From positions 1 to 37,487 of IMG/VR virus record IMGVR_UViG_3300038315_000952: a stretch of 37,487 nt of DNA. The stretch is one strand, 5' to 3'. Every line of letters begins with the position of its first letter. The stretch's first letter is position 1. The DNA comes from a virus (Duplodnaviria; Caudoviricetes). The notes beneath the pieces were generated by a model. That model was not told the DNA's origin and did no database searches. It was given only the letters and a program-made list of their open reading frames with translations. Below are positions 4,264 to 36,577 of the stretch, in pieces. The position numbers and the translations under genes were made by a program.

Positions 4264-4559
4264 TGAACAAGTGTCCAGTGAACAGGCGTTCAGTACTGCG
4301 CAAGTGTCCAGTGAACAAGTGTGTAGTACTGCACAAGTGTACAGGGTGAACAGGTGTTCAGGGTGAACAAGTGTACAGTGTGAACATTTGTACAGTGAAC
4401 AGGCGTGCAGGGTGAACATTTGTACAGTGAACAAGTGTACAGTGAACGGGTTTTCAGTACTGAACGTCTGTACAGTGAACAAGTTTTCAGTATGAACAAG
4501 TGTTCAGTGTTTGGGCAATGTTTCACGTGAAACACAATTTAGTACTGCACAAGTGTTCA
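4264..4559. repeat. Array of 16 degenerate 14-bp palindromes TGAAC-N4-GT(T/A)CA (LexA/SOS-box-like)
   Basis: Units start at 4264, 4279, 4297, 4312, 4330, 4347, 4364, 4381, 4396, 4413, 4428, 4443, 4461, 4476, 4493 and 4546. The first 15 are separated by 1-4 nt spacers that begin with G. Confidence 0.9.
4519..4534. promoter_or_regulatory. parS: parS site (TGTTTCACGTGAAACA)
   Basis: Perfect match to the canonical chromosomal ParB/Spo0J binding palindrome. Confidence 0.8.
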
Positions 4560-4666
4560 GTCACGATCTTTTTGTTGTCTCTAGTGTCGATTTAGGTGCC
4601 GATTTAGTTGCTATTGCGTACAACAACATGCTAAACGTAGCGCTCACAACAACAACGGAGTTACAC

Positions 4667-4840
4667 ATGTTAAGACAAGACAACCCGAAGCAATCCGAAG
4701 CCCTGCTAGATAGGCTAGCCAAAGCGCAAAACCACCCCGAAAACTCGATGGTGGACATTATGACGATAACGGGCTTTATGAAGACTATAGAAGAGCTGAC
4801 GACGCACGTAGAACACTATGAAGAGCAAGCACAAGGCTAA
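4667..4840 (+). CDS. Small hypothetical early protein (57 aa)
   Basis: Leader TCACAACAACAACGGAGTTACAC directly before ATG 4667. Confidence 0.75.
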   Translation: MLRQDNPKQSEALLDRLAKAQNHPENSMVDIMTITGFMKTIEELTTHVEHYEEQAQG

Positions 4841-4849
4841 CCAATAGCT

Positions 4850-4872
4850 AGGGGTCTTCGGACCCCTCTTTT
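4850..4872 (+). terminator. Hairpin with c(UUCG)g tetraloop and short U tract
   Basis: AGGGGTC-TTCG-GACCCCT-CTTTT just after the stop codon. Confidence 0.65.
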
Positions 4873-4896
4873 CACAACAAATCGGGAGTTTACATT

Positions 4897-5142
4897 ATGT
4901 TAGACAAGACTATTTTGAAAGAAGTTTATTTGCTACTCAAAACGCGCGAAATCCACCCCTCGGGTAGGTTTGACAATGGCGGCCGGTGGCATGCAAAACA
5001 CGCGGAGCTGGTATCAGTCCGCACACCGTCGCGCGCGTATCCCTACAGCGAAATGACGCATTGCCGAACACTCAAATATGTCCGAAACGTTGCTGAGCAT
5101 TTTGAAGTCACCAATAAGGCCGAGCTTTTAAAGCTAGTGTAA
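4897..5142 (+). CDS. Small hypothetical early protein
   Basis: Leader TCACAACAAATCGGGAGTTTACATT before ATG; 81 aa. Confidence 0.8.
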   Translation: MLDKTILKEVYLLLKTREIHPSGRFDNGGRWHAKHAELVSVRTPSRAYPYSEMTHCRTLKYVRNVAEHFEVTNKAELLKLV

Positions 5143-5167
5143 AACCCAACCGCTAAACCGACGAATT

Positions 5168-5195
5168 AGGCTCCATTATGGGGCCTCTTTTGTTT
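5168..5195 (+). terminator. Intrinsic terminator
   Basis: AGGCTCCA-TTA-TGGGGCCT followed by CTTTTGTTT. Confidence 0.7.
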
Positions 5196-5621
5196 CTGGG
5201 GTGATGTTTAGGGCTAGTGGGGTTTTAACGGGCTAGTTATTTCTCCCCACCAGCCCCAATTATAAACGTTACGAATAGTCTAAGCACACTTAACCATCTT
5301 TAAGCAAGCTCCCAAGATCGTGGTGTACTTGTGTACATAGTGTACGTCTTTTGAAAACTTTTGAGTTCCTACGATAGGCTACTCTATAGATAAGTTACTT
5401 ATTAGATGCATCTATATACACTAACCCTACTACCTTAGTATTATCAACGGCTTACACGATGCACTTCATAATTGGTACTCTTAAAAAGACCGTTTGAAGT
5501 ACATAAATGGGTCCTAAATGGTCCAAGTACATCCAACCCAAACGAAAACAGGAGCCGTGAAAGGCTCCTATTCTCTAAATCAGCTGTTTTGAAGTACATT
5601 ATCGGCTTAAAAATGTTGTTG

Positions 5622-5855
5622 CTAGTCATTGAAAGAAAGTAGGCGCGCGCGATATCGCCCAAGGCTGATGCCACAATTCCATGATTCGATTTGCTCCGCG
5701 ATATCGTGAGCGAGCGCTTCCGCTTGAGAGTCGGTTAAACCCATTTGAAGCTTGCCACATAACCAGGGGACAATTGTCATATCGTGCTTTGTGGCGATTA
5801 GCCGAGCTTCATAAGGCGATAGGTTGCGAAATATATTCCTCGTTAGTTTATCCAT
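5622..5855 (-). CDS. Small hypothetical early protein
   Basis: Conserved leader TCACAACAAACAAAGGAGC and upstream TTGACT-16-TATACA. Confidence 0.8.
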   Translation of the reverse strand: MDKLTRNIFRNLSPYEARLIATKHDMTIVPWLCGKLQMGLTDSQAEALAHDIAEQIESWNCGISLGRYRARLLSFND

Positions 5856-5978
5856 TGTGTTGCTCCTTTGTTTGTTGTGAACCCCACGTGTATACCATTG
5901 TTGCCATGATAGTCAACAATGCAGTGAAAAGAATCAAACTAATCGGGAAAGAAAGGAAGAAAGGAAAGGAAAGGAGAG

Positions 5979-6410
5979 CTAGTCCATTTGGGCAATTGTC
6001 AATTGCAACTCGTTGCGTTTAACGTACTCTGTCGTTAGTGGTCCTAAGTACTCATGATAACCGACCCACACGATACCGGTTCCAGTTGCGTTAGATTGCA
6101 GCTCGTACCCTTCGCCCAATTTTGGATAGTCGCCAGTTGCCAAAATCGCATCCAACTCGGCTTGGTTTTCGCAGTCGTACGCTTCGGGAACGTCTTCTGG
6201 CTCTATCGGCTCTAGCTGGTCAATCACTGCCTCATAAACTGACTGGTGATCACTACCTTGTCCGATTGCGGTTAATCCACCTAAATCGTGATTCTCGTAG
6301 ACCCAAAGCTCAGGCCAAAAGCTCTCATCGATCAACATGATCTCACGCCCATGACGATTTTTAACAGTGGTTAATTCGGTATCTGACTTGAGGGTTATTT
6401 GATTTTCCAT
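5979..6410 (-). CDS. Hypothetical acidic early protein
   Basis: Start reassigned to ATG 6410 from the leader TCACAACAATTTTTTGGAGTTTACA. Confidence 0.8.
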   Translation of the reverse strand: MENQITLKSDTELTTVKNRHGREIMLIDESFWPELWVYENHDLGGLTAIGQGSDHQSVYEAVIDQLEPIEPEDVPEAYDCENQAELDAILATGDYPKLGEGYELQSNATGTGIVWVGYHEYLGPLTTEYVKRNELQLTIAQMD

Positions 6411-6519
6411 TGTAAACTCCAAAAAATTGTTGTGAGATAAACCACTATAGGATGTTGCTCTGATAGTCAACAACGGGAGCAAACTAAATCGTAAATGGCA
6501 GGAAATGGCAGGAAATGGT

Positions 6520-6984
6520 CTAGCGTTCGCCTAGTCCATTAATCACCACCCCGCCATAGTCAACCCGTTGTTCAATAAGCCAATTCTCATGAGTTGATTC
6601 GGCACAATCTGAGCAAAGCTCCGGATAATCGCCATTACCAGTAGGTTCACAAGAATAGTCATCACGCGCGTGATTAATGCTGATGCAATCATCATCGATA
6701 GCATTAGAACAAACCGCTCGGTAGATACTCAGGCAAACAGTGTCCAAATCCGAAATCGAAACTTGATATTGAAAACCCTCGTCTATGGAAACAATGTATT
6801 CTTTCGTATTCGTCCCAAATCTAACGTTCTCTGTATAGACTGGTGAATGAAGCGATTCATGGCCGAAATCCCATTGTCCCAGATACGCCAAAAGAGAATC
6901 AAAATCGCGCTTTTTGATTTGCGCTTGTTGCTCTTCAGGCAATTCAAAATCGTGACGATAAGCTATAGTGTGTAATTCGAACAT
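6520..6984 (-). CDS. Hypothetical early protein with Cys-rich C-terminus
   Basis: Start reassigned to ATG 6984; promoter TTGTAA-17-TAAGGG plus the conserved leader. Confidence 0.8.
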   Translation of the reverse strand: MFELHTIAYRHDFELPEEQQAQIKKRDFDSLLAYLGQWDFGHESLHSPVYTENVRFGTNTKEYIVSIDEGFQYQVSISDLDTVCLSIYRAVCSNAIDDDCISINHARDDYSCEPTGNGDYPELCSDCAESTHENWLIEQRVDYGGVVINGLGER

Positions 6985-7088
6985 TGTGAAAGCTCCTTTG
7001 TTTGTTGTGAAGCTATCCCTTAAACCACAGCGGCAACAATTACAAGAAAAAACGTCATCGGGAGAGGAAAGGAGAGGAGCGGGAACGA

Positions 7089-7445
7089 TTAACCTAGAAA
7101 CAAATCCCAAAACTTATCGGTGTCGTCTAACTGCTCAAGACGTTCCAAGTCGATTAGGAAAATATCGCCTTCCCTACAGCATACCGAATACCGCCTACCG
7201 CCTACCACGATAGCATCCAATTGCTCGATTTCGTCCCATGCATCGAAGTAGTCCTCATGGTCTGGCCCAGCATCAATTATATCAATTGTATCGCTCGTTA
7301 ATTGGGTCCCGAGTAACTCGCTTAACTGTTGGCGATAATGGAACACAAACGACTGTGCCCCATAAATCCCGGCTTGACTGCTGACGACACAAGACGCAAT
7401 AGAATCCAATAAGATAATCTCATCACACACGCTCGATACTAACAT
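7089..7445 (-). CDS. Hypothetical acidic early protein
   Basis: Start reassigned to ATG 7445; promoter TTGCAA-17-TATGCG plus the conserved leader. Confidence 0.8.
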   Translation of the reverse strand: MLVSSVCDEIILLDSIASCVVSSQAGIYGAQSFVFHYRQQLSELLGTQLTSDTIDIIDAGPDHEDYFDAWDEIEQLDAIVVGGRRYSVCCREGDIFLIDLERLEQLDDTDKFWDLFLG

Positions 7446-7507
7446 TGTAAATCTCCTAAAAAATGTTGTGAAGGCATCGCATAACCCACAGCGGAAACAA
7501 TTGCAAA

Positions 7508-7984
7508 TTAATAGTTCATCGCTTCTGCTGAATAATCGCGGTGACGTTCGTCTTCCGTTTCCCAATCTGGCGTTTTCGGGCAAGCGTAAGCCTCTGGTAA
7601 TCCTTGGTATGGCTGCCAAGCCTGCAAGCGGTTAATTGGACAATAATCGGTTTGGGCACTACTGTATCTACCGTCACAGTCTCTACTAGCAGATGCTAAA
7701 TCACGGCGAACAAACCACCCCCATGCATCGCCAATACAATCATGCTCTAACGTATATTGTTCGCCCCACCAAGCGTACCCCTCTTCATTGGGACCACCTC
7801 CGCACAAATCAACAACGTTCCCCCGAATCCCTTCTTCCGGTACTTCCCCATTGCGTTTCAAATCAAACCGGCTCACATTTGGCCGCAGCTTGATTTTGAC
7901 CCATGAATCATTGTGGGAAATCCAAAATCGGACATTCCTGCGACTGCCACCGATAGGTAAATAATGGGCTAGATGTTTTTGCAT
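7508..7984 (-). CDS. Hypothetical early protein
   Basis: Start reassigned to ATG 7984; promoter TTGCAA-17-TAAGGA plus the conserved leader. Confidence 0.8.
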   Translation of the reverse strand: MQKHLAHYLPIGGSRRNVRFWISHNDSWVKIKLRPNVSRFDLKRNGEVPEEGIRGNVVDLCGGGPNEEGYAWWGEQYTLEHDCIGDAWGWFVRRDLASASRDCDGRYSSAQTDYCPINRLQAWQPYQGLPEAYACPKTPDWETEDERHRDYSAEAMNY

Positions 7985-8054
7985 TGTAAAAGCTCCCTTG
8001 TTTGTTGTGAGACTACTCCTTAAACCACACTGGAAACAATTGCAAGCACCTATT

Positions 8055-8372
8055 TCATTCTTCAACGTCCCATTGTTTCTTGAACACTTTGTTGTATGTG
8101 TCGTTCTGCCCTTTGAGAGCTTCTCTCATCTTTCCAAGTGTAGCAGAAGGAACACCAGGCATGTTCACGCACGAAACAAATGTGCGAGCAAGTTTCACCA
8201 GGCTGTCAACCGATTCTTGTTTGCGTCTTATCGTTTCCTCGTAAACCGCCAATAATTCTTTCTCGGTCACCCTATACGGGCGATTGCATCGGTGACATAT
8301 TCGGGCATCACCCTGTTGTGCTTCTGTCGGCTCGTTGCAATGCACGCATTTGGTCATGATGTGGGTTTGCAT
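8055..8372 (-). CDS. Hypothetical protein, N-terminal Zn ribbon plus helical region
   Basis: CVHC...CHRC motifs; leader CACAACAAACAAAGGAGC. Confidence 0.8.
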   Translation of the reverse strand: MQTHIMTKCVHCNEPTEAQQGDARICHRCNRPYRVTEKELLAVYEETIRRKQESVDSLVKLARTFVSCVNMPGVPSATLGKMREALKGQNDTYNKVFKKQWDVEE

Positions 8373-8404
8373 TCGAAAGGCTCCTTTGTTTGTTGTGTTC
8401 GCTC

Positions 8405-8470
8405 CTTTTATCGCCTTGTTTCCTCCCTGTCAACTTAAATGTTGACATCCACACCAACAACTCGTAAAAA
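8405..8470. promoter_or_regulatory. Back-to-back divergent sigma70-like promoters
   Basis: Minus strand TTGACA(8433-8428)-17-TAAAAG; plus strand TTGACA(8442-8447)-17-TAAAAA. Confidence 0.7.
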
Positions 8471-8497
8471 GAGAAATCACAATTTAAAGGAGTTCAG

Positions 8498-8800
8498 ATG
8501 ATTACTGTTGAACAATTTGATACGTTAAAAACGCGGCAACCCGTCAAAATAAAACTTGATGCTTGCATGGGAGGCTTGAAAGAGCGAGTTCTATATGTAG
8601 GCCGCCGCACCAAATCTAAAAACGGGCGCACCGTATCCCTCACACTGAATCGCGAACCGGGAAAAGCAGCCCCAGCACACTTGAGAAATCTGGTGAAAAT
8701 CACGCTCTACAAGCGCAAACGGTACGAGGACGATTCTTGGTACATCTCAGCGGCTATCGGCAACATGGGCGCAACGATCCCATTCTTTGAAGCCCTCTAA
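8498..8800 (+). CDS. Hypothetical basic protein
   Basis: AAAGGAG RBS; 100 aa. Confidence 0.8.
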   Translation: MITVEQFDTLKTRQPVKIKLDACMGGLKERVLYVGRRTKSKNGRTVSLTLNREPGKAAPAHLRNLVKITLYKRKRYEDDSWYISAAIGNMGATIPFFEAL

Positions 8801-8817
8801 CAACAGAAAGTAAGACA

Positions 8818-8973
8818 ATGAAAAAAAAATCAGAACTTGAAGAGAAAAAAGAAGCAGAAATCCAGCGAGGTCTAAACCTTGTGCGCGTTTTGCATGACCG
8901 GGAACCAACAGAAGACGATCGGGTCAAAATCGCAGCCGAGGTGGAGAAGCTAGCCCGAGAAGCGGGGCACTAA
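8818..8973 (+). CDS. Small hypothetical protein (51 aa, below the ORF track cutoff)
   Basis: Manual translation MKKKSELEEKKEAEIQRG...AREAGH; fills the gap and is followed by a hairpin. Confidence 0.6.
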   Translation: MKKKSELEEKKEAEIQRGLNLVRVLHDREPTEDDRVKIAAEVEKLAREAGH

Positions 8974-8980
8974 TTGTTTC

Positions 8981-9002
8981 GGCCCTCTTACGAGGGCCTT
9001 TC
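8981..9002 (+). terminator. Probable terminator hairpin
   Basis: GGCCCTC-TTAC-GAGGGCC followed by T and a pyrimidine tract. Confidence 0.6.
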
Positions 9003-9099
9003 CTTCCCCTCTTACTGCTTTTTCTTGACCTCTCCTCCCTATTTCGTTATTGCTCCAAACAACAACAAAGGCCCAACGGCCACAACAAAAGGTTAAAAA

Positions 9100-9759
9100 A
9101 TGTTATCCAATAAAGACCGCGCTTCACTCAGAAGCTACGAAGACCGGCTAGAAAATGAAGCTAACGACCCCGAAGCAATCCCCGAGCGATATTGTATTGT
9201 TTGTGAAGAAGACACAGAACACAAACTGGACGATGAAAAGATCTGCAATGATTGTTTTTTGCCCTATTCCGACGATTTACGCACAGTTATTGATTTTCTC
9301 TCCAACAAAGTCTCTGACTTGACGGATATTGCTAGTGGTTCGCTGAAACAAACAGAGGAAGTGATGGAGCAACACGTAGAAGGTGTTAACTTGCTCGAAA
9401 AGCTAACGGCTCAATTATCAGAACAAATGGACCGTGGAGACTTTTTCCAACACCAATTTTTGCAACTGGCGAATGCCCTCAAAAGTCCTGAGCTAGCGAA
9501 ATTGCCGTATAGGGTTGAGCGTTGTTTGGTTAAAGCGCTGGAGGCTGTTGCGTCTGACAATGAGGCGATGAAAACAGACTTGGTGCAAAGCCATGCGGGT
9601 CAAATCGCATTGATACTGGCCTCACACCATTACGCTGTCAATGACGCAGATGATGAAAACGCGCCTTGTGTTATTTGCAAAACGAAACCGAGTCTGGACA
9701 AATCGCTTTCTTGTGGAGATTGCGTGGCTCCGACCATCGAATCGAAAGACCTAAACTAA
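9100..9759 (+). CDS. Hypothetical protein with two CxxC...CxxC Zn-finger-like ends and a central coiled coil
   Basis: CIVC..CNDC and CVIC..CGDC motifs; promoter TTGACC-17-TATTGC at 9025-9053. Confidence 0.8.
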   Translation: MLSNKDRASLRSYEDRLENEANDPEAIPERYCIVCEEDTEHKLDDEKICNDCFLPYSDDLRTVIDFLSNKVSDLTDIASGSLKQTEEVMEQHVEGVNLLEKLTAQLSEQMDRGDFFQHQFLQLANALKSPELAKLPYRVERCLVKALEAVASDNEAMKTDLVQSHAGQIALILASHHYAVNDADDENAPCVICKTKPSLDKSLSCGDCVAPTIESKDLN

Positions 9760-12225: not shown

Positions 12226-12372
12226 CTTTTCGGTCCTCCTCCCGTTTTTTCTCAAACTTCAATAGCGCCTCTCGAATTCTTGATTTGTAGTCCATTTTCC
12301 GCCATCCTTTCCTCACCTTCTTCTTGTGTGAAAAGGCGGTGGGGGGGTGGCTTCAGTCTCGTGGCTATCTCC

Positions 12373-15010: not shown

Positions 15011-15226
15011 ATGGCGGCAACCCAACCCAGCGCAATGCACGAGATCGCAGCACTCTGGAAAGCACAAACCAAAACGGGAAAAACTTATTTAAAAGGGAGA
15101 CTTGGTAATTCGCAAATAATGGTAATGGCCAACGAATTCAAAACCGAGGGGAGCAACCAACCGGATTATAGGGTGCTGGTAGCAGCCAAGCCGCAAGAAA
15201 AAGAAGGCGGCTACAAACCGGGCTGA
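15011..15226 (+). CDS. Small DUF736-like protein (possible ssDNA binding)
   Basis: IAALWKAQTKTGKTYLKG...NQPDYRV pattern; start uncertain (15002, 15011 or 15035). Confidence 0.65.
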   Translation: MAATQPSAMHEIAALWKAQTKTGKTYLKGRLGNSQIMVMANEFKTEGSNQPDYRVLVAAKPQEKEGGYKPG

Positions 15227-15284
15227 GTTTCTCCTTATCTTGTCCCTGCTTTTGGCAATAACCTTTTCACACAAGAGGATTACG

Positions 15285-15647
15285 ATGATGAAACAACTAC
15301 CACCCTCCGTGATCGATGTAGAGCACGAGGACCTAGTTCCATGGTCGGTATATGACCGGCTGCATAAACAAAATACTTTCAACCGGCGCATGAAAAAGCT
15401 CTTTGCAGCGGCGGCCTGCTTTGGACTTGTCGCTTCCGGGATGGGAATTCACATGGATTGGGTGGACCTCCGGGTCGCTGTAGCAGAACGGTTTTTGGCC
15501 CTTGACCAGCTCAAAGCCCAGGAGAATGACGCGGCACATCGAAGCACAAGTCCCTGCGGTCATGACCGTTTTGAGCGCGAAAGCCTTGATTGGACGATAC
15601 TCAAAGCGATTGCTAAGAACAGGAGCCCTTTTGATGGACGCGAATAA
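15285..15647 (+). CDS. Hypothetical membrane-anchored protein
   Basis: GAGGA RBS before ATG 15285; one hydrophobic segment. Confidence 0.65.
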   Translation: MMKQLPPSVIDVEHEDLVPWSVYDRLHKQNTFNRRMKKLFAAAACFGLVASGMGIHMDWVDLRVAVAERFLALDQLKAQENDAAHRSTSPCGHDRFERESLDWTILKAIAKNRSPFDGRE

Positions 15648-15915
15648 AGCGGTGTTCGGAGTAGGGAGGTGGTTAGCAGATAGCTTCTGGCCATGGGTGT
15701 GCTGGTTTATCGGGAGCCTGTTTAATGGGGTGATGCTCATCTTGCTGTTGGGTGCCGCGTTTTTCGGTGGTGCCGTCTACAATTCCAATATGGAAGAGCG
15801 TCTTACATTGCAGGAGCTTTGCACGAAAGTGATATCGCTCAACGGAACCCTTGAGCTACCTATGAGCACGGTAAACGACCCCCCGTGGACAAAGGGGAAA
15901 AAACGGAAGAAATAA
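15634..15915 (+). CDS. Hypothetical membrane protein
   Basis: AGGAG before ATG 15634; long hydrophobic stretch. Confidence 0.65.
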   Translation: MDANKAVFGVGRWLADSFWPWVCWFIGSLFNGVMLILLLGAAFFGGAVYNSNMEERLTLQELCTKVISLNGTLELPMSTVNDPPWTKGKKRKK

Positions 15916-15968
15916 GCGGCAAAAAAGCGGGGGACTTGCAATTAATCCTTTTTTTGCTATTTTAATAT

Positions 15969-16033
15969 TGGGGCCGGTGCTGTGTAAACTCCTTTTGTTG
16001 TGAAAAGACCTCAGCTTAGTATCGGCCCCATTT
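15969..16033 (+). ncRNA. Candidate structured small RNA or riboregulator, with loop antisense to the early-gene leader
   Basis: 13-bp closing stem 15969-15981/16018-16030 with two G-U pairs that form only on the + strand; upstream TTGCAA-16-TATTTT at 15936-15963; T run after the stem. Confidence 0.55.
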
Positions 16034-16039
16034 AATTCC

Positions 16040-16441
16040 ATGACGAGATTGACTAAAAATTTCTCCTCTTGGGAGTTTGCTTGCAATTGTGGCTGTGGTC
16101 AGGGTGCTATGTCCGATACCCACATCGCCCTACTTCAGAAGCTCCGCACGATTGTCGGCCCGTTAACCGTTACATCAGGAATAAGGTGCAAGGATTACAA
16201 TGCGCTATGTAAGGGTGCCCCCAGCTCCCACCATATCCCACGGGACGGGGTTTGCACTGCATCGGATATAACTTTTACGCTAGGGGCTAAAAGTAACAGC
16301 CGGATGCTGTACCTGTACACCATGGCCGACCAGCTACACTTTAAAGGGTTGGGGCTATATCGAGGGCGCATACACGTTGATTCCCGCAAAGGTCGCCGCG
16401 CCAGATGGGTGGACCATTTGTGGAGTTGGAAAGACTCTTAA
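16040..16441 (+). CDS. Peptidase M15 family endolysin
   Basis: NFSSWEFACNCGCG, TSGIRC..YN, SSHH, ASD and IHVD Zn-peptidase motifs. Confidence 0.9.
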   Translation: MTRLTKNFSSWEFACNCGCGQGAMSDTHIALLQKLRTIVGPLTVTSGIRCKDYNALCKGAPSSHHIPRDGVCTASDITFTLGAKSNSRMLYLYTMADQLHFKGLGLYRGRIHVDSRKGRRARWVDHLWSWKDS

Positions 16442-16651
16442 TCACCACCGCACTTTTAGACCTGCCATAGCCGCCACATCATCTAAGGTTGCGGTGGCCT
16501 CCACGAACGCACTGACACCGCCACCGATGCGCGTATTGACTTCAAGAAATGCCTCGAGGTTTGCCCTATCCATAGGTAAAGCCCATTGATTATTAAAGCG
16601 GATACCAGCAGCAAGTATATTTTCCTCCAAGCCATCTAGCCGGAGGAGCTT
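16442..16651 (-). CDS. Probable -1 frameshift extension of the holin: amphipathic beta-strands ending AGLKVRW
   Basis: The frame is open from the A8 run in the holin 3' end to TGA 16442, and the ORF-track TTG start has no RBS. Confidence 0.6.
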   Translation of the reverse strand, partial: KLLRLDGLEENILAAGIRFNNQWALPMDRANLEAFLEVNTRIGGGVSAFVEATATLDDVAAMAGLKVRW

Positions 16652-16878
16652 TTTTTTAGAAGCGTTTCGGCCACAATTTTCGCATTCGCCTGGGTCGCTT
16701 CCTTTTTACCTTTGGCCCATGATCGAGAGGTTATGTAACTGGGACCGGCAACCGCCGCGAGGACCCCCCCGATTATTTGGGTAAGAGGGTTATCCGGGGC
16801 TACCGATAGGAGCAAACCGCCAATCGTCCCTATCACTGCCAGCAAAAACTCTGTTGTCTTCCATCCGGGTTTATCCAT
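16636..16878 (-). CDS. Putative holin (2 TM)
   Basis: MDKPGWKTTEF followed by two hydrophobic helices and a basic C-terminus; 80 aa; at the end of the late operon beside the endolysin. Confidence 0.75.
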   Translation of the reverse strand: MDKPGWKTTEFLLAVIGTIGGLLLSVAPDNPLTQIIGGVLAAVAGPSYITSRSWAKGKKEATQANAKIVAETLLKKSSSG

Positions 16879-34669: not shown

Positions 34670-36577
34670 TTATTGCATTCCTGCTATTGCATCTGTTCCC
34701 GGCGGCGGTAATGCCCCCATTTCACCCGGAGGTGCCCCCTCTTCTGGTAGTGCTAACCCCTGTTCTGGTAATGGCCCGCCCTCCATAGGCATCTCGCCCG
34801 GAGCACCGCCCGGAGCCACTTGCGGAGCACTCGCCTCGGCCAAAGCCTGTTGATTAGCCTGCTCTGCCATTTTACGCATCTCCATTACCCTAATTGCATC
34901 ATCCATATAGCGCCTAAGCAATTCGAGCCGTTCTTCTGGAACGTTGTCCACTTTTGCGCGTAAATATGCCGATTGAATCCGCTGAACAGCAAATTCGAGA
35001 TTAGAGAATGTTTCAGGGGGGTGATAATGACCCTTTTCAACCATTTCTTCGATTAAAAGGTCCACATCATCAACAAAAGCCGTAGCTAATTGGTTTACCG
35101 CCTCCAAATCGGGGAAATCCAAGAGCGCACGGGCTTCTGTAGGATTCAACAGCCCTGTTTGAGCCATCTCCTGAATCGTTTGAAGTCTGGCCGCCGGAGT
35201 AGTCGATAATAGTGCCGTCGGATAAATCTGCATAACGTACTGGTCTTCTTCAAGGTCAATCTCTTTCCACTCAATCCGCTCAATATACTTATCACCATGA
35301 CTAATCACACCGTAGCTATCACCTCGTTTCGAGATATCCCTAGCGAGGTCAATCATTAACCGCGATGCAGTTAAGAAGAGATTCTCATACCCCTGAGCGA
35401 CCAACATAAAACGCTCGGATTGAATGTCGGAGAACTCACGGATAGCAACGCCAGAATCCAAACCAGCAGGTTTTTTCGCCTGGGCAGCCATCTCCGAAAT
35501 ACCAGCAACCTCATAAGCACGACCAAATAAGCGGTCCAAATGAGAGAACACCTCCCCCGTAGTCGTTCTAGGCACATGGAAGTCAGGCTTGGTCCCCGTG
35601 TACTCGATTACACCCCAAACCTCATTGTTGATATGAGCCTTGGATATCTTCGACCCCGCTTCAATAAATACCTTGGGCGTCGCCAAGTGCATCTGTTCCT
35701 GAATCCGATTAAGGAGCTTATTAATCTCTACCTGCACACCTAGCAGTTGTTCGGCCAAGCCTTGGCCCCAAAATCCAAGCAGATTCTCAGTCCAACGAAT
35801 AAAGACGAAGGGGAAAAAATCTTTATCATAAGTCTCATCCATAAGGGTAACGTTGTCCAAACATATGCAGTGGCGACCATCACCGGCATCTTTTCGAGAA
35901 GCCAAATGCCAAGCCTCCACGCACTCCACTTGATTCGACGTAGACCCCTCGGAGTGATTATCATACTCTGCCTTCGACGCGTTTAAGATCTCTTTTTCAA
36001 ACTCCGGGTATGCCGCAATCAACACCTCCCGAGAGATAACCTTGCGCTGGAACATCTGCCGGGGCTTGCCATAGAAGCTCTCTGCATCATCCACCACTAT
36101 CTCATTAGGGAAAATACGTTCCGCGACAACACGTTCGCCATCCTCGTAAATCTTCATAACCCCAGTGCCGAATACAGACGCATCTAAGAAGACCTTGGGA
36201 GCTACCATATAGATATCGGTGGCGTAAAACTGCCCATTCACGAACTTATCAAGCAACTTGGCCCTGCGCTTCAAAGAGTAGTTGCCCCCAGAGGTTAGAA
36301 ACGTGACCTTGGGCCGATTCTTCGCAATCTTACTCGTGACTGTCGTACACATTGAATGAACAATGTTTAACGTCACATCGTTAGAACGCGACCCGCTTCG
36401 CCGTGAATAACTAGCCTGCGTTAAACCATTCGTGTTCGTGTTCGAGAATAGACGCATCCAATTAAGGTTATCGTCGGCCCGGTGACTCTGGTCATCGGCC
36501 AGCGTCTTTATTGAAGAGAATACATCCTCGTGAATATCAGAACCCTTTTGCCACCAGAATTCATTCGCCTTATACAT
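34670..36577 (-). CDS. Portal protein
   Basis: 635 aa directly after terL; FGTGVMK, FWGQGLAEQL and SGVAIRE motifs; Pro/Gly/Met-rich tail. Confidence 0.88.
   Translation of the reverse strand: MYKANEFWWQKGSDIHEDVFSSIKTLADDQSHRADDNLNWMRLFSNTNTNGLTQASYSRRSGSRSNDVTLNIVHSMCTTVTSKIAKNRPKVTFLTSGGNYSLKRRAKLLDKFVNGQFYATDIYMVAPKVFLDASVFGTGVMKIYEDGERVVAERIFPNEIVVDDAESFYGKPRQMFQRKVISREVLIAAYPEFEKEILNASKAEYDNHSEGSTSNQVECVEAWHLASRKDAGDGRHCICLDNVTLMDETYDKDFFPFVFIRWTENLLGFWGQGLAEQLLGVQVEINKLLNRIQEQMHLATPKVFIEAGSKISKAHINNEVWGVIEYTGTKPDFHVPRTTTGEVFSHLDRLFGRAYEVAGISEMAAQAKKPAGLDSGVAIREFSDIQSERFMLVAQGYENLFLTASRLMIDLARDISKRGDSYGVISHGDKYIERIEWKEIDLEEDQYVMQIYPTALLSTTPAARLQTIQEMAQTGLLNPTEARALLDFPDLEAVNQLATAFVDDVDLLIEEMVEKGHYHPPETFSNLEFAVQRIQSAYLRAKVDNVPEERLELLRRYMDDAIRVMEMRKMAEQANQQALAEASAPQVAPGGAPGEMPMEGGPLPEQGLALPEEGAPPGEMGALPPPGTDAIAGMQ

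What the first reader, a model, noticed from the sequence alone, without database searches (positions are those of the whole stretch)
15936..16040. Candidate small RNA whose loop is antisense to the leader/RBS shared by about 10 early genes
Seen: a promoter-like TTGCAA-16-TATTTT precedes a 13-bp stem (TGGGGCCGGTGCT/AGTATCGGCCCCA). Its two G-U pairs form only in the + strand RNA. The enclosed sequence GTGTAAACTCCTTTTGTTGTGAAAAGA has reverse complement TCTTTTCACAACAAAAGGAGTTTACAC, which is the early-gene leader consensus (for example 4897: TCTTTTCACAACAAA-TCG-GGAGTTTACA; also 4667, 5855, 6410, 6984, 7445, 7984, 8372, 9100). No start codon follows it on that strand. An inner hairpin CTTTT/AAAAG would display GUUGUG, complementary to the most conserved leader core CACAAC. 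Inference: one trans-acting RNA could block the RBS of the whole early cassette array at once. Alternatively, since the SD-less endolysin ATG is 9 nt after the stem, early mRNAs could bind this leader and gate endolysin expression.
Basis: partly seen in the sequence, partly recalled or inferred. Interest (0 to 1): 0.85.

Follow-up and report, generated by a model that had tools for sequence, protein, structure and literature searches.

The report
Phage anti-leader RNA before endolysin
An uncultured marine phage carries, just before its cell-wall-lysis gene, a sequence predicted to fold into a 60-base closed-stem RNA, conserved in shape among relatives, whose interior in this phage alone is complementary to the shared leader of ten of its own putative early genes, so it likely acts as an RNA off-switch for early protein synthesis, which is untested.

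Summary
In this complete 37.5-kb marine phage genome, 15970-16029 (+) folds into a 13-bp closing stem (z -5.3). Its interior pairs with ten early-cassette leaders far better than chance (z -6.3; best genome-wide).

The element is a member of an RNA family with no Rfam match. It sits directly before the same endolysin in 20 of 24 clade members. Shared features: a TAnnnT promoter box about 6 nt before the first base, a covarying stem (11 of 14 pairs; 15 G-U, 0 A-C) and an anti-Shine-Dalgarno motif RCCUC(C) (9 of 12 lineages).

The extended anti-leader match is not conserved. Five of six relatives with early genes show no preference for their own leaders, and one shows only a weak preference. Loop/leader co-evolution was therefore not found.

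Best reading (0.45): a stable, RNA-OUT-like anti-RBS small RNA, retargeted in this lineage to repress its own early mRNAs. Main rival (0.25): a cis leader that throttles or stabilises endolysin mRNA, with an incidentally captured interior. Transcription and repression are untested. New variant of a known kind; interest 0.6.

The parts
15936..15963 (+). sigma70-type promoter of the RNA/endolysin unit: -35 TTGCAA (15936-41), extended TG, -10 TATTTT (15958-63)
   Evidence: the T and A of the -10 box are invariant and its last T is >=90% conserved in 21 aligned sequences, about 6 nt before the stem; 8 of 12 match, not called by the scanner
15970..16029 (+). candidate small RNA (60 nt; 5' end predicted at G15970; 3' end unknown, at or shortly after 16030)
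15970..15982 (+). closing stem P1, 5' strand
16017..16029 (+). closing stem P1, 3' strand
15984..15994 (+). seed 1: complement of the SD and SD-AUG spacer of the early leaders; opening cost 4.2 kcal/mol, duplex -7.6 to -15.1 with 9 of 10 leaders
15995..16003 (+). seed 2: complement of the TCACAACAA block at the predicted 5' end of early mRNAs, displayed in the loop of inner hairpin P2 (15992-96/16003-07); duplex about -10 with 9 of 10 leaders
16008..16012 (+). family-conserved single-stranded RCCUC (anti-SD-like) motif
16040..16441 (+). endolysin, Peptidase_M15_3, with no SD before its AUG
4846..4896 (+). best target: leader of gene 4897 plus the upstream terminator-like hairpin (4851-4866); the whole 34-nt interior can pair here, looping out the hairpin's 3' half; possible template of the interior
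4644..4666 (+). early leader of gene 4667
5856..5881 (-). early leader of gene 5855
6411..6435 (-). early leader of gene 6410
6985..7010 (-). early leader of gene 6984
7446..7471 (-). early leader of gene 7445
7985..8010 (-). early leader of gene 7984
8373..8397 (-). early leader of gene 8372
9081..9099 (+). leader of gene 9100 (CACAAC block, weak SD)
15011..15915 (+). upstream + strand genes (weak DUF736-like 15011-15226, an ORF ending 15647, a hydrophobic ORF 15634-15915); the minus-strand ORFs at 15391 and 15740 are probably shadows
16636..16878 (-). conserved small hydrophobic protein at the end of the late operon, convergent with the endolysin; candidate holin (inferred from position and hydrophobicity)

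Best explanation
The stretch 15970-16029 likely makes a stable small RNA from its own predicted host-polymerase promoter, and its interior, which is complementary to the leaders of ten of the phage's putative early genes, would pair with those short leaders and so block their translation. Shown: the promoter-like box, the covarying closing stem, the RCCUC motif and the position before the endolysin across the clade, and the complementarity to ten leaders in this genome. Inferred: (1) transcription starts at the first G, so the 5' end is buried in the stem and the RNA is long-lived. (2) It acts as a terminated or processed ~60-70-nt species, or as the 5' end of the endolysin mRNA. (3) The early mRNAs begin at about CACAAC, 7 nt after their -10 boxes, so their free 5' ends can nucleate on the GUUGUG loop and extend over the SD, as the RNA-IN 5' tail does on the RNA-OUT loop. 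(4) Because it is made from the start of infection and accumulates, it works as a timer that ends the early burst, while the SD-less endolysin is not a target. The ancestral family member is a generic anti-SD RNA with a variable interior; the early-leader specificity is a lineage-specific retargeting.
For: Fold and strand polarity (15 G-U versus 0 A-C in 12 lineage stems). Stem covariation: 11 of 14 pairs, 87% of cells paired versus 74% shuffled and 35-58% in slid controls. -10 box at a fixed distance from the stem. RCCUC in 9 of 12 lineage-reduced interiors versus 1.1 expected, maximum 6 in 1000 shuffles. All 10 early leaders rank in the top 13 of 45 starts; z -6.3; best of 1,924 scored windows. 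Both seeds are largely accessible. The match covers both conserved leader blocks, including the SD-AUG spacer, in antisense. CACAA lies 7 nt after the -10 box in 4 of the 5 early promoters the pattern found, and 9 nt in the fifth. Five or more T's in the first 9 nt after the stem in 8 of 16 members. Precedents: RNA-OUT (PMC4737173, passages), GcvB on ACA enhancers (PMC3879156, abstract), StxS (PMC7547250, abstract).
Against: No own-leader preference in 5 of 6 relatives and only a weak one in G010 (z -2.4, 3 of 200). No other anti-leader element stood out among the top genome-wide hits in G010, G003, G034, L232 or G033 (hits inspected were mostly antisense strands of real leaders or G/U-rich coding stretches). 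The RNA always sits immediately before the endolysin and follows the endolysin tree rather than the capsid: it is present in G034 (capsid 38% identical) and undetected in G004, G008 and G027 (capsid 65-67%), which suggests a cis role. This member has no clear terminator tail. One target (4897) is much better than the rest (net -23.0 versus -5 to -13), as a single copying event would give. A closed 34-nt interior cannot host a 27-bp helix without opening the stem (inference), and full opening gains only about 4.7 kcal/mol.
Confidence: 0.45

Rival explanations
1. A cis-acting 5' leader of the endolysin mRNA: the closing stem protects the 5' end and/or attenuates transcription or translation so that an immediately transcribed endolysin stays low. 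The anti-leader interior is an inverted copy of the 4846-4894 junction captured by recombination or template switching, without a selected trans role.
For: Single copy, 10-38 nt before the endolysin start in 16 of 16 measured members. Lost exactly where the endolysin appears to lie at the end of another gene's operon (L119/L202, L208-L210). U-rich tails. The interior equals 4846-4894 with the hairpin's 3' arm deleted between two TCTT repeats, a typical slippage product (inference). The phage encodes RecE/RecT-like proteins.
Against: It does not explain the conserved unpaired RCCUC motif. No interior/downstream pairing covaries (z -2.1 to +1.3 in 16 members). An endolysin without a signal sequence normally needs the holin, which here lies in the convergent late operon, so tight repression is not required (established knowledge, recalled). 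A neutral 27-nt antisense copy of ten RBSs in a transcribed RNA would still be expected to act on them.
Confidence: 0.25
2. The RNA mainly silences foreign mRNAs: early genes of superinfecting related phages, or host genes with strong SD sequences. The match to its own leaders is a by-product of clade-wide leader similarity.
For: Interiors differ between lineages but read like antisense RBS regions. The L204 interior pairs with G034 leaders (z -3.4) and with this phage's leaders (z -2.5), although L204's own early region is missing. Precedent for cross-genome repression: SviR (10.1101/2022.04.08.487710, abstract) and STnc6030 (PMC12197685, section 4).
Against: This RNA pairs much better with its own leaders (-23.9) than with those of six relatives (-12.0 to -14.4). 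The L204 z-values are the best of 28 comparisons. The host is unknown, so host targets were not tested.
Confidence: 0.13
3. A molecular-beacon switch: early mRNAs bind the interior and open or remodel the stem, gating endolysin translation or read-through.
For: Co-folding with the 4897 leader replaces P1. The endolysin AUG is 9 nt from the stem and has no SD.
Against: The net gain is only about 4.7 kcal/mol even for the best leader. The AUG region is not sequestered by P1 in the unbound fold. Opening by early mRNAs would switch lysin on early. The input sequence is not conserved in relatives.
Confidence: 0.1
4. A DNA-level element: an inverted operator or start-site box for a protein that acts on early promoters, a decayed minus-strand cassette, or part of a minus-strand promoter.
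For: CACAAC sits at the predicted early start sites. The scanner finds a minus-strand TTTACA-18-TAAAAT (10 of 12) overlapping the element.
Against: G-U polarity and compensatory changes point to + strand RNA. There is no minus-strand start codon here; in relatives, SD-led minus-strand ORFs are 1-38 codons except one of 86 codons in G034, which is 14 and 11 codons in its relatives L222 and L201. The scanner found 3 promoter-like sites versus 2.0 +/- 1.3 by chance.
Confidence: 0.07

Closest known systems
IS10/Tn10 RNA-OUT acting on RNA-IN (PMC4737173, passages read)
   Same: About 60-70-nt hairpin RNA with a large loop. [quoted passage not shown]
   Different: RNA-OUT is cis-encoded with one fully complementary target. 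This RNA is encoded 7-11 kb away, pairs imperfectly with ten leaders and heads a lysis gene.
GcvB of enterobacteria (PMC3879156, abstract read)
   Same: A multi-target repressor pairing with ACA-rich enhancer elements just upstream of the SD; the phage leaders are ACA-rich and the RNA displays a G/U-rich seed.
   Different: No sequence or family relationship (no Rfam hit). GcvB is a chromosomal Hfq-class RNA (recalled). This RNA is 60 nt, has paired ends and also covers the SD.
StxS / short PR'-tR' transcript of lambdoid phages (PMC7547250, abstract and opening read)
   Same: A short RNA from a promoter placed directly before lysis genes that has gained a trans-regulatory role.
   Different: No Q-like antiterminator was found among 45 ORFs scanned against PHROGs, and there is no canonical terminator. 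StxS targets rpoS and stx1AB, not an early-gene set.
Cuckoo RNAs of Alphaproteobacteria (PMC4615179, abstract read) and other C-rich-loop anti-SD sRNAs (recalled)
   Same: An unpaired CCUCC-type motif conserved while the stems vary.
   Different: Cuckoo RNAs have 2-4 adjacent hairpins each with CCUCCUCCC; this family has one closing stem around one (sometimes two) shorter motifs.
Start-Associated Sequences of Cluster K mycobacteriophages (PMC3203893, passages read)
   Same: A phage-specific RBS-overlapping motif on many non-structural genes, with a single copy in the opposite orientation in several genomes; binding by RNA or protein was left open.
   Different: Different motif and phage group; there the inverted copy was not described as part of a structured RNA in the passages read.
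Candidate structured RNA DNAVirus_7098 (Fremin et al. 2023, PMC10690425, supplement rows read)
   Same: 52 nt, 16 marine viral sequences, 9 within 25 bp upstream of Peptidase_M15_3 genes, no terminator call; it may be this family or a part of it.
   Different: Its sequences and structure are in files that could not be read, so identity is unresolved; the rows seen give no function.

Membership tests
Any Rfam family | Covariance-model match | tested here: not met
   0 at gathering over the window; 0 at E<=10 over 15800-16200; 14 related loci at E<=5 gave one irrelevant hit elsewhere
Trans-acting base-pairing sRNA | Own promoter and conserved structure on one strand | tested here: met
   (comparative evidence only)
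Trans-acting base-pairing sRNA | Accessible seed complementary to target RBSs beyond chance | tested here: met
   for this genome
Trans-acting base-pairing sRNA | Seed/target pairing conserved or covarying in relatives | tested here: not met
   5 of 6 relatives none, 1 weak
Trans-acting base-pairing sRNA | Discrete transcript with a defined 3' end, and repression of targets | not testable with these tools
   needs infection RNA data or reporters
RNA-OUT-type cis antisense RNA | Encoded opposite its target, fully complementary | tested here: not met
   targets lie at 4644-9099; pairing is gapped
RNA-OUT-type cis antisense RNA | Loop pairs with the free 5' end of the target | tested here: inconclusive
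   CACAA 7-9 nt after a -10 box in 5 of 10 leaders by pattern; start sites not mapped
Cuckoo RNA | 2-4 adjacent hairpins each with CCUCCUCCC in the loop | tested here: not met
   folds of 16 members; no Rfam hit
GcvB | Sequence/structure homology to GcvB | tested here: not met
StxS / PR'-tR' short transcript | Intrinsic terminator after the promoter and a Q antiterminator | tested here: inconclusive
   no terminator called at the element; T-rich tails in 8 of 16 members; no antiterminator family among 45 ORFs
Y RNA | Rfam Y RNA match and a linked Ro60/TROVE gene | tested here: not met
   no TROVE in 5 of 5 genomes; no Rfam hit
DNAVirus_7098 (Fremin 2023) | Match to its alignment or model | not testable with these tools
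   files too large to read; context agrees

The most novel reading that the evidence does not exclude
The family is a natural re-programmable antisense scaffold. A conserved promoter, closing stem and anti-SD anchor hold a 24-52-nt guide that is swapped between lineages by capturing inverted copies of ribosome-binding regions, here from the phage's own 4846-4894 junction. One RNA shuts off a whole early-cassette array, and other lineages aim theirs at competitors or the host.
Probability: 0.15. Interest if true: 0.88.

Novelty: new variant of a known kind. Interest (0 to 1): 0.6.

Why it matters
Many phages put a shared RBS-overlapping motif on their small early genes, and why is open (for example the Cluster K start-associated sequences, PMC3203893). 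One trans-acting RNA that reads such a motif would explain both the motif and early shut-off in a phage with no recognised RNA polymerase or sigma factor gene among the 45 ORFs scanned. It is directly testable with leader-GFP reporters in a laboratory strain, without the unknown host. The family also offers a natural scaffold with fixed ends and a variable interior, in which only one lineage so far has an identifiable target set.

Tried and rejected
Expression: no RNA holder was listed for 15300-16700; this is no evidence either way. Eight DNA runs were laid; X5 and X8 cover the element and list no changed letter inside it, and the other six do not cover it or cover only its 3' end; uninformative for selection.

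Host: not identified. No match in the GenBank phage collection for capsid or portal. Only two weak partial capsid hits (E 2e-4) in genome contigs, not used. The Atlas gave only viral clusters.

More close relatives with complete early arrays: single-protein scans with endolysin and RecE found none. The RecT-alignment scan returned only G010 and G003 as close relatives. The exact loop pattern gave 0. Two leader-pattern scans gave 10 and 66 single hits; these 76 loci gave only three distant tblastn matches at E<=1e-15.

Alternative conserved targets: holin start (14 members, diagonal effect -0.1, off-diagonal sd 2.4; the L200 start was probably mis-picked); the gene after primase-polymerase (7 members, -0.9, sd 1.9); the endolysin's own downstream 110 nt; all SD-led starts. 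None was supported.

A cis pseudoknot with the endolysin SD was rejected because most members lack an SD there. A minus-strand ORF or promoter is not conserved. Y RNA, Hfq/Sm partner and tRNA: none found. The target list included two probable shadow ORFs and some uncertain starts, and omitted the + strand genes at 15011-15915.

Full report
Setting. The window is a whole viral record with direct terminal repeats, found in runs labelled marine metagenome. It encodes terminase, portal, capsid, RecE/RecT-like proteins, primases and an endolysin (Peptidase_M15_3). It has no match in the GenBank phage collection and the host is unknown. Between 4640 and 9760 lie ten small genes without family hits, apart from two weak ones. 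Each has a C/A-rich leader (TCACAAC...GGAG...ATG), and most lie behind TTG-type -35 boxes. 'Early' is inferred from this cassette layout.

Observation. All stated features are present. The + strand folds at -29.8 kcal/mol (z -5.3, 0 of 200 shuffles) against -22.6 for the minus strand. The interior ranks the ten early leaders within the top 13 of 45 starts; a late or middle acetyltransferase-like gene is fifth. The mean duplex is -23.9 versus -12.2 +/- 1.8 for shuffles. It is the best of 1,924 seed-filtered windows out of 14,358. Only the 4897 leader matches almost completely; net energies after opening costs are -23.0 for 4897 and -5 to -13 for the other nine. Two short seeds, one against the SD and spacer and one against CACAAC, each cost about 4 kcal/mol to open and each bind 9 of 10 leaders.

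It is a conserved RNA family. Endolysin relatives were collected, and 52 loci were read upstream of the gene. In an endolysin tree of 31 rows, 20 of the 24 rows of the close clade carry a closed-stem element. Three lack it and one has only 124 nt upstream; these four form one subgroup, and the seven more distant rows lack it. In 21 aligned sequences the T and A of a TAnnnT box are invariant, about 6 nt before the first base of the stem, so the predicted start is G15970. On a sequence-only alignment of 19 members, 11 of 14 stem pairs change on both sides; 87% of cells pair versus 74% in shuffles (0 of 500) and 35-58% in slid controls. RNAalifold finds the same helix. These sequences are related and one row (L120) is misaligned, so the shuffle count is not a probability. 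Twelve lineage-reduced stems hold 15 G-U and 0 A-C oppositions, which fixes the + strand. A covariance model finds one copy per genome, always before the endolysin, in 94 sources (19 match by construction), and none in 85 further loci. Rfam has no match. Interiors are 24-52 nt and very variable, but RCCUC occurs near their 3' end in 12 of 16 members, and in 9 of 12 lineages versus 1.1 expected. This phage has it at 16008-16012, unpaired.

The anti-leader match is lineage-specific. G010, G003, G034 and L232 have their own C/A-rich early cassettes, and L218 and L221 show part of theirs. In the own-versus-foreign matrix only this phage shows a diagonal. Against shuffles the relatives score z -2.4, -0.3, -0.4, 0.0, -1.1 and +0.2. 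No second anti-leader element stood out in the relatives, and no other conserved target was found. L204 has the most similar stem, and its interior reads like two clade-typical RBS spacers in antisense; it pairs with G034 leaders at z -3.4, but its own early region is not in the contig, and this is the best of 28 comparisons. The whole 34-nt interior of this phage pairs with 4846-4894 if the 3' half of the intervening hairpin is looped out (-42.4). That suggests, by inference, that it arose as an inverted copy of this junction; convergence from the ancestral anti-SD motifs cannot be excluded.

How it most likely works. Shown: promoter-like box, stem, motif, position, complementarity. Inferred: the RNA is made by host polymerase from the start of infection, and its paired ends make it long-lived. 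Early mRNAs begin at about CACAAC (7 nt after the -10 box in four leaders, 9 nt in one, no pattern match in five). Their free 5' ends can therefore enter the loop and extend over the SD, as described for RNA-IN on RNA-OUT (PMC4737173, passages). That covers both the ACA-type enhancer that GcvB silences in its targets (PMC3879156, abstract) and the SD. Accumulation of the RNA would end the early burst; the SD-less endolysin escapes. I put this at 0.45.

The main rival (0.25) is a cis leader for the endolysin with an incidental interior. The RNA follows the endolysin and not the capsid: present in G034 (capsid 38% identical), undetected in G004, G008 and G027 (capsid 65-67%). It is lost where the endolysin seems to be the last gene of an operon. 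Silencing of competitors or host (0.13), an early-mRNA-gated beacon (0.10; only about 4.7 kcal/mol net) and a DNA element or decayed cassette (0.07) are less likely.

Comparison with what is known. It works like RNA-OUT in shape, like GcvB in target type, like cuckoo RNAs in its motif (PMC4615179, abstract) and like StxS in position (PMC7547250, abstract and opening). It meets the membership tests of none. A review of phage sRNAs (PMC12197685, parts 1-2 of 6 read) lists cis antisense RNAs such as sar, OOP, aQ and the endolysin-associated PAK_P4as15, and trans RNAs aimed at host genes; in those parts I saw none that targets a shared early leader. Searches (listings only, unless named here) showed no such case; the library lacks most subscription papers. 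One catalogued candidate, DNAVirus_7098 (52 nt, 16 marine sequences, 9 before Peptidase_M15_3; PMC10690425 supplement rows), may be this family. Its alignment files could not be read, which bears on the claim that the family is undescribed. Earlier AI notes from this scan report similar anti-leader hairpins in unrelated phages. They are unchecked leads, not support, but they mean the idea is not unique to this genome.

Verdict. A real and previously uncurated phage RNA family. The strong, testable case for early-gene shut-off applies to this lineage only, with no conservation of that pairing and no expression data. New variant of a known kind; interest 0.6.

Noticed in passing
L122:10001-10399 (also L123, L213, L216, L217, L222, L223, L224, L228): In 9 of 36 endolysins translated, all from one lineage, an in-frame TGA stands at the first Cys of the conserved CxCxC motif near codon 16. 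The rest of the frame is intact and ends in TAG. TGA is an ordinary stop elsewhere in G034, and no tRNA genes were found. Candidate selenocysteine or read-through throttle on a lysis gene; these members also have an SD before the gene. A paper search (listing only) showed no such case.
   Followed up: partly
window 12296-12365, minus strand: A second conserved non-coding element lies between the primase-polymerase stop and a conserved gene starting MDYKSRI (ATG 12295): C-rich tract, CACACAA-type core, purine-rich RBS region, in 7 of 7 genomes checked. Folding is weak and inconsistent. In relatives the gene continues into a WCHVPNEG nuclease-like motif; here it stops after about 50 codons and a PD-(D/E)XK-like ORF follows in another frame.
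   Followed up: partly
window 4640-9100: Four of the five early promoters found by pattern have a good -35 box but a -10 box lacking the final T, whereas the RNA family's promoter keeps TAnnnT with a variable -35: two promoter classes.
   Followed up: no
window 4270-4545: An array of short imperfect repeats rich in GTGAACA, TGTACA and AGTACT, flanked by GTTTCACGTGAAAC palindromes (one at about 4520, another before the portal gene start at 36577); possible origin or packaging region.
   Followed up: no
window 15011-15915: The real genes here appear to be on the + strand (DUF736-like, an unknown ORF, a hydrophobic ORF); the longer minus-strand ORFs at 15391 and 15740 look like shadows.
   Followed up: partly
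window 16063-16075: A small hairpin early in the endolysin coding region contains GGGAGUUUGC, which can pair 10 of 10 (with two G-U) with seed 1 of the RNA. It is not enriched over shuffles (z -0.6) and not conserved in relatives.
   Followed up: yes
G033 (L259/L260) and L208-L210: A different phage lineage carries this endolysin and the convergent holin-like pair without the RNA, with an SD-led start directly behind an upstream ORF; G033 has its own CAACC-AAAGGA early leaders.
   Followed up: partly
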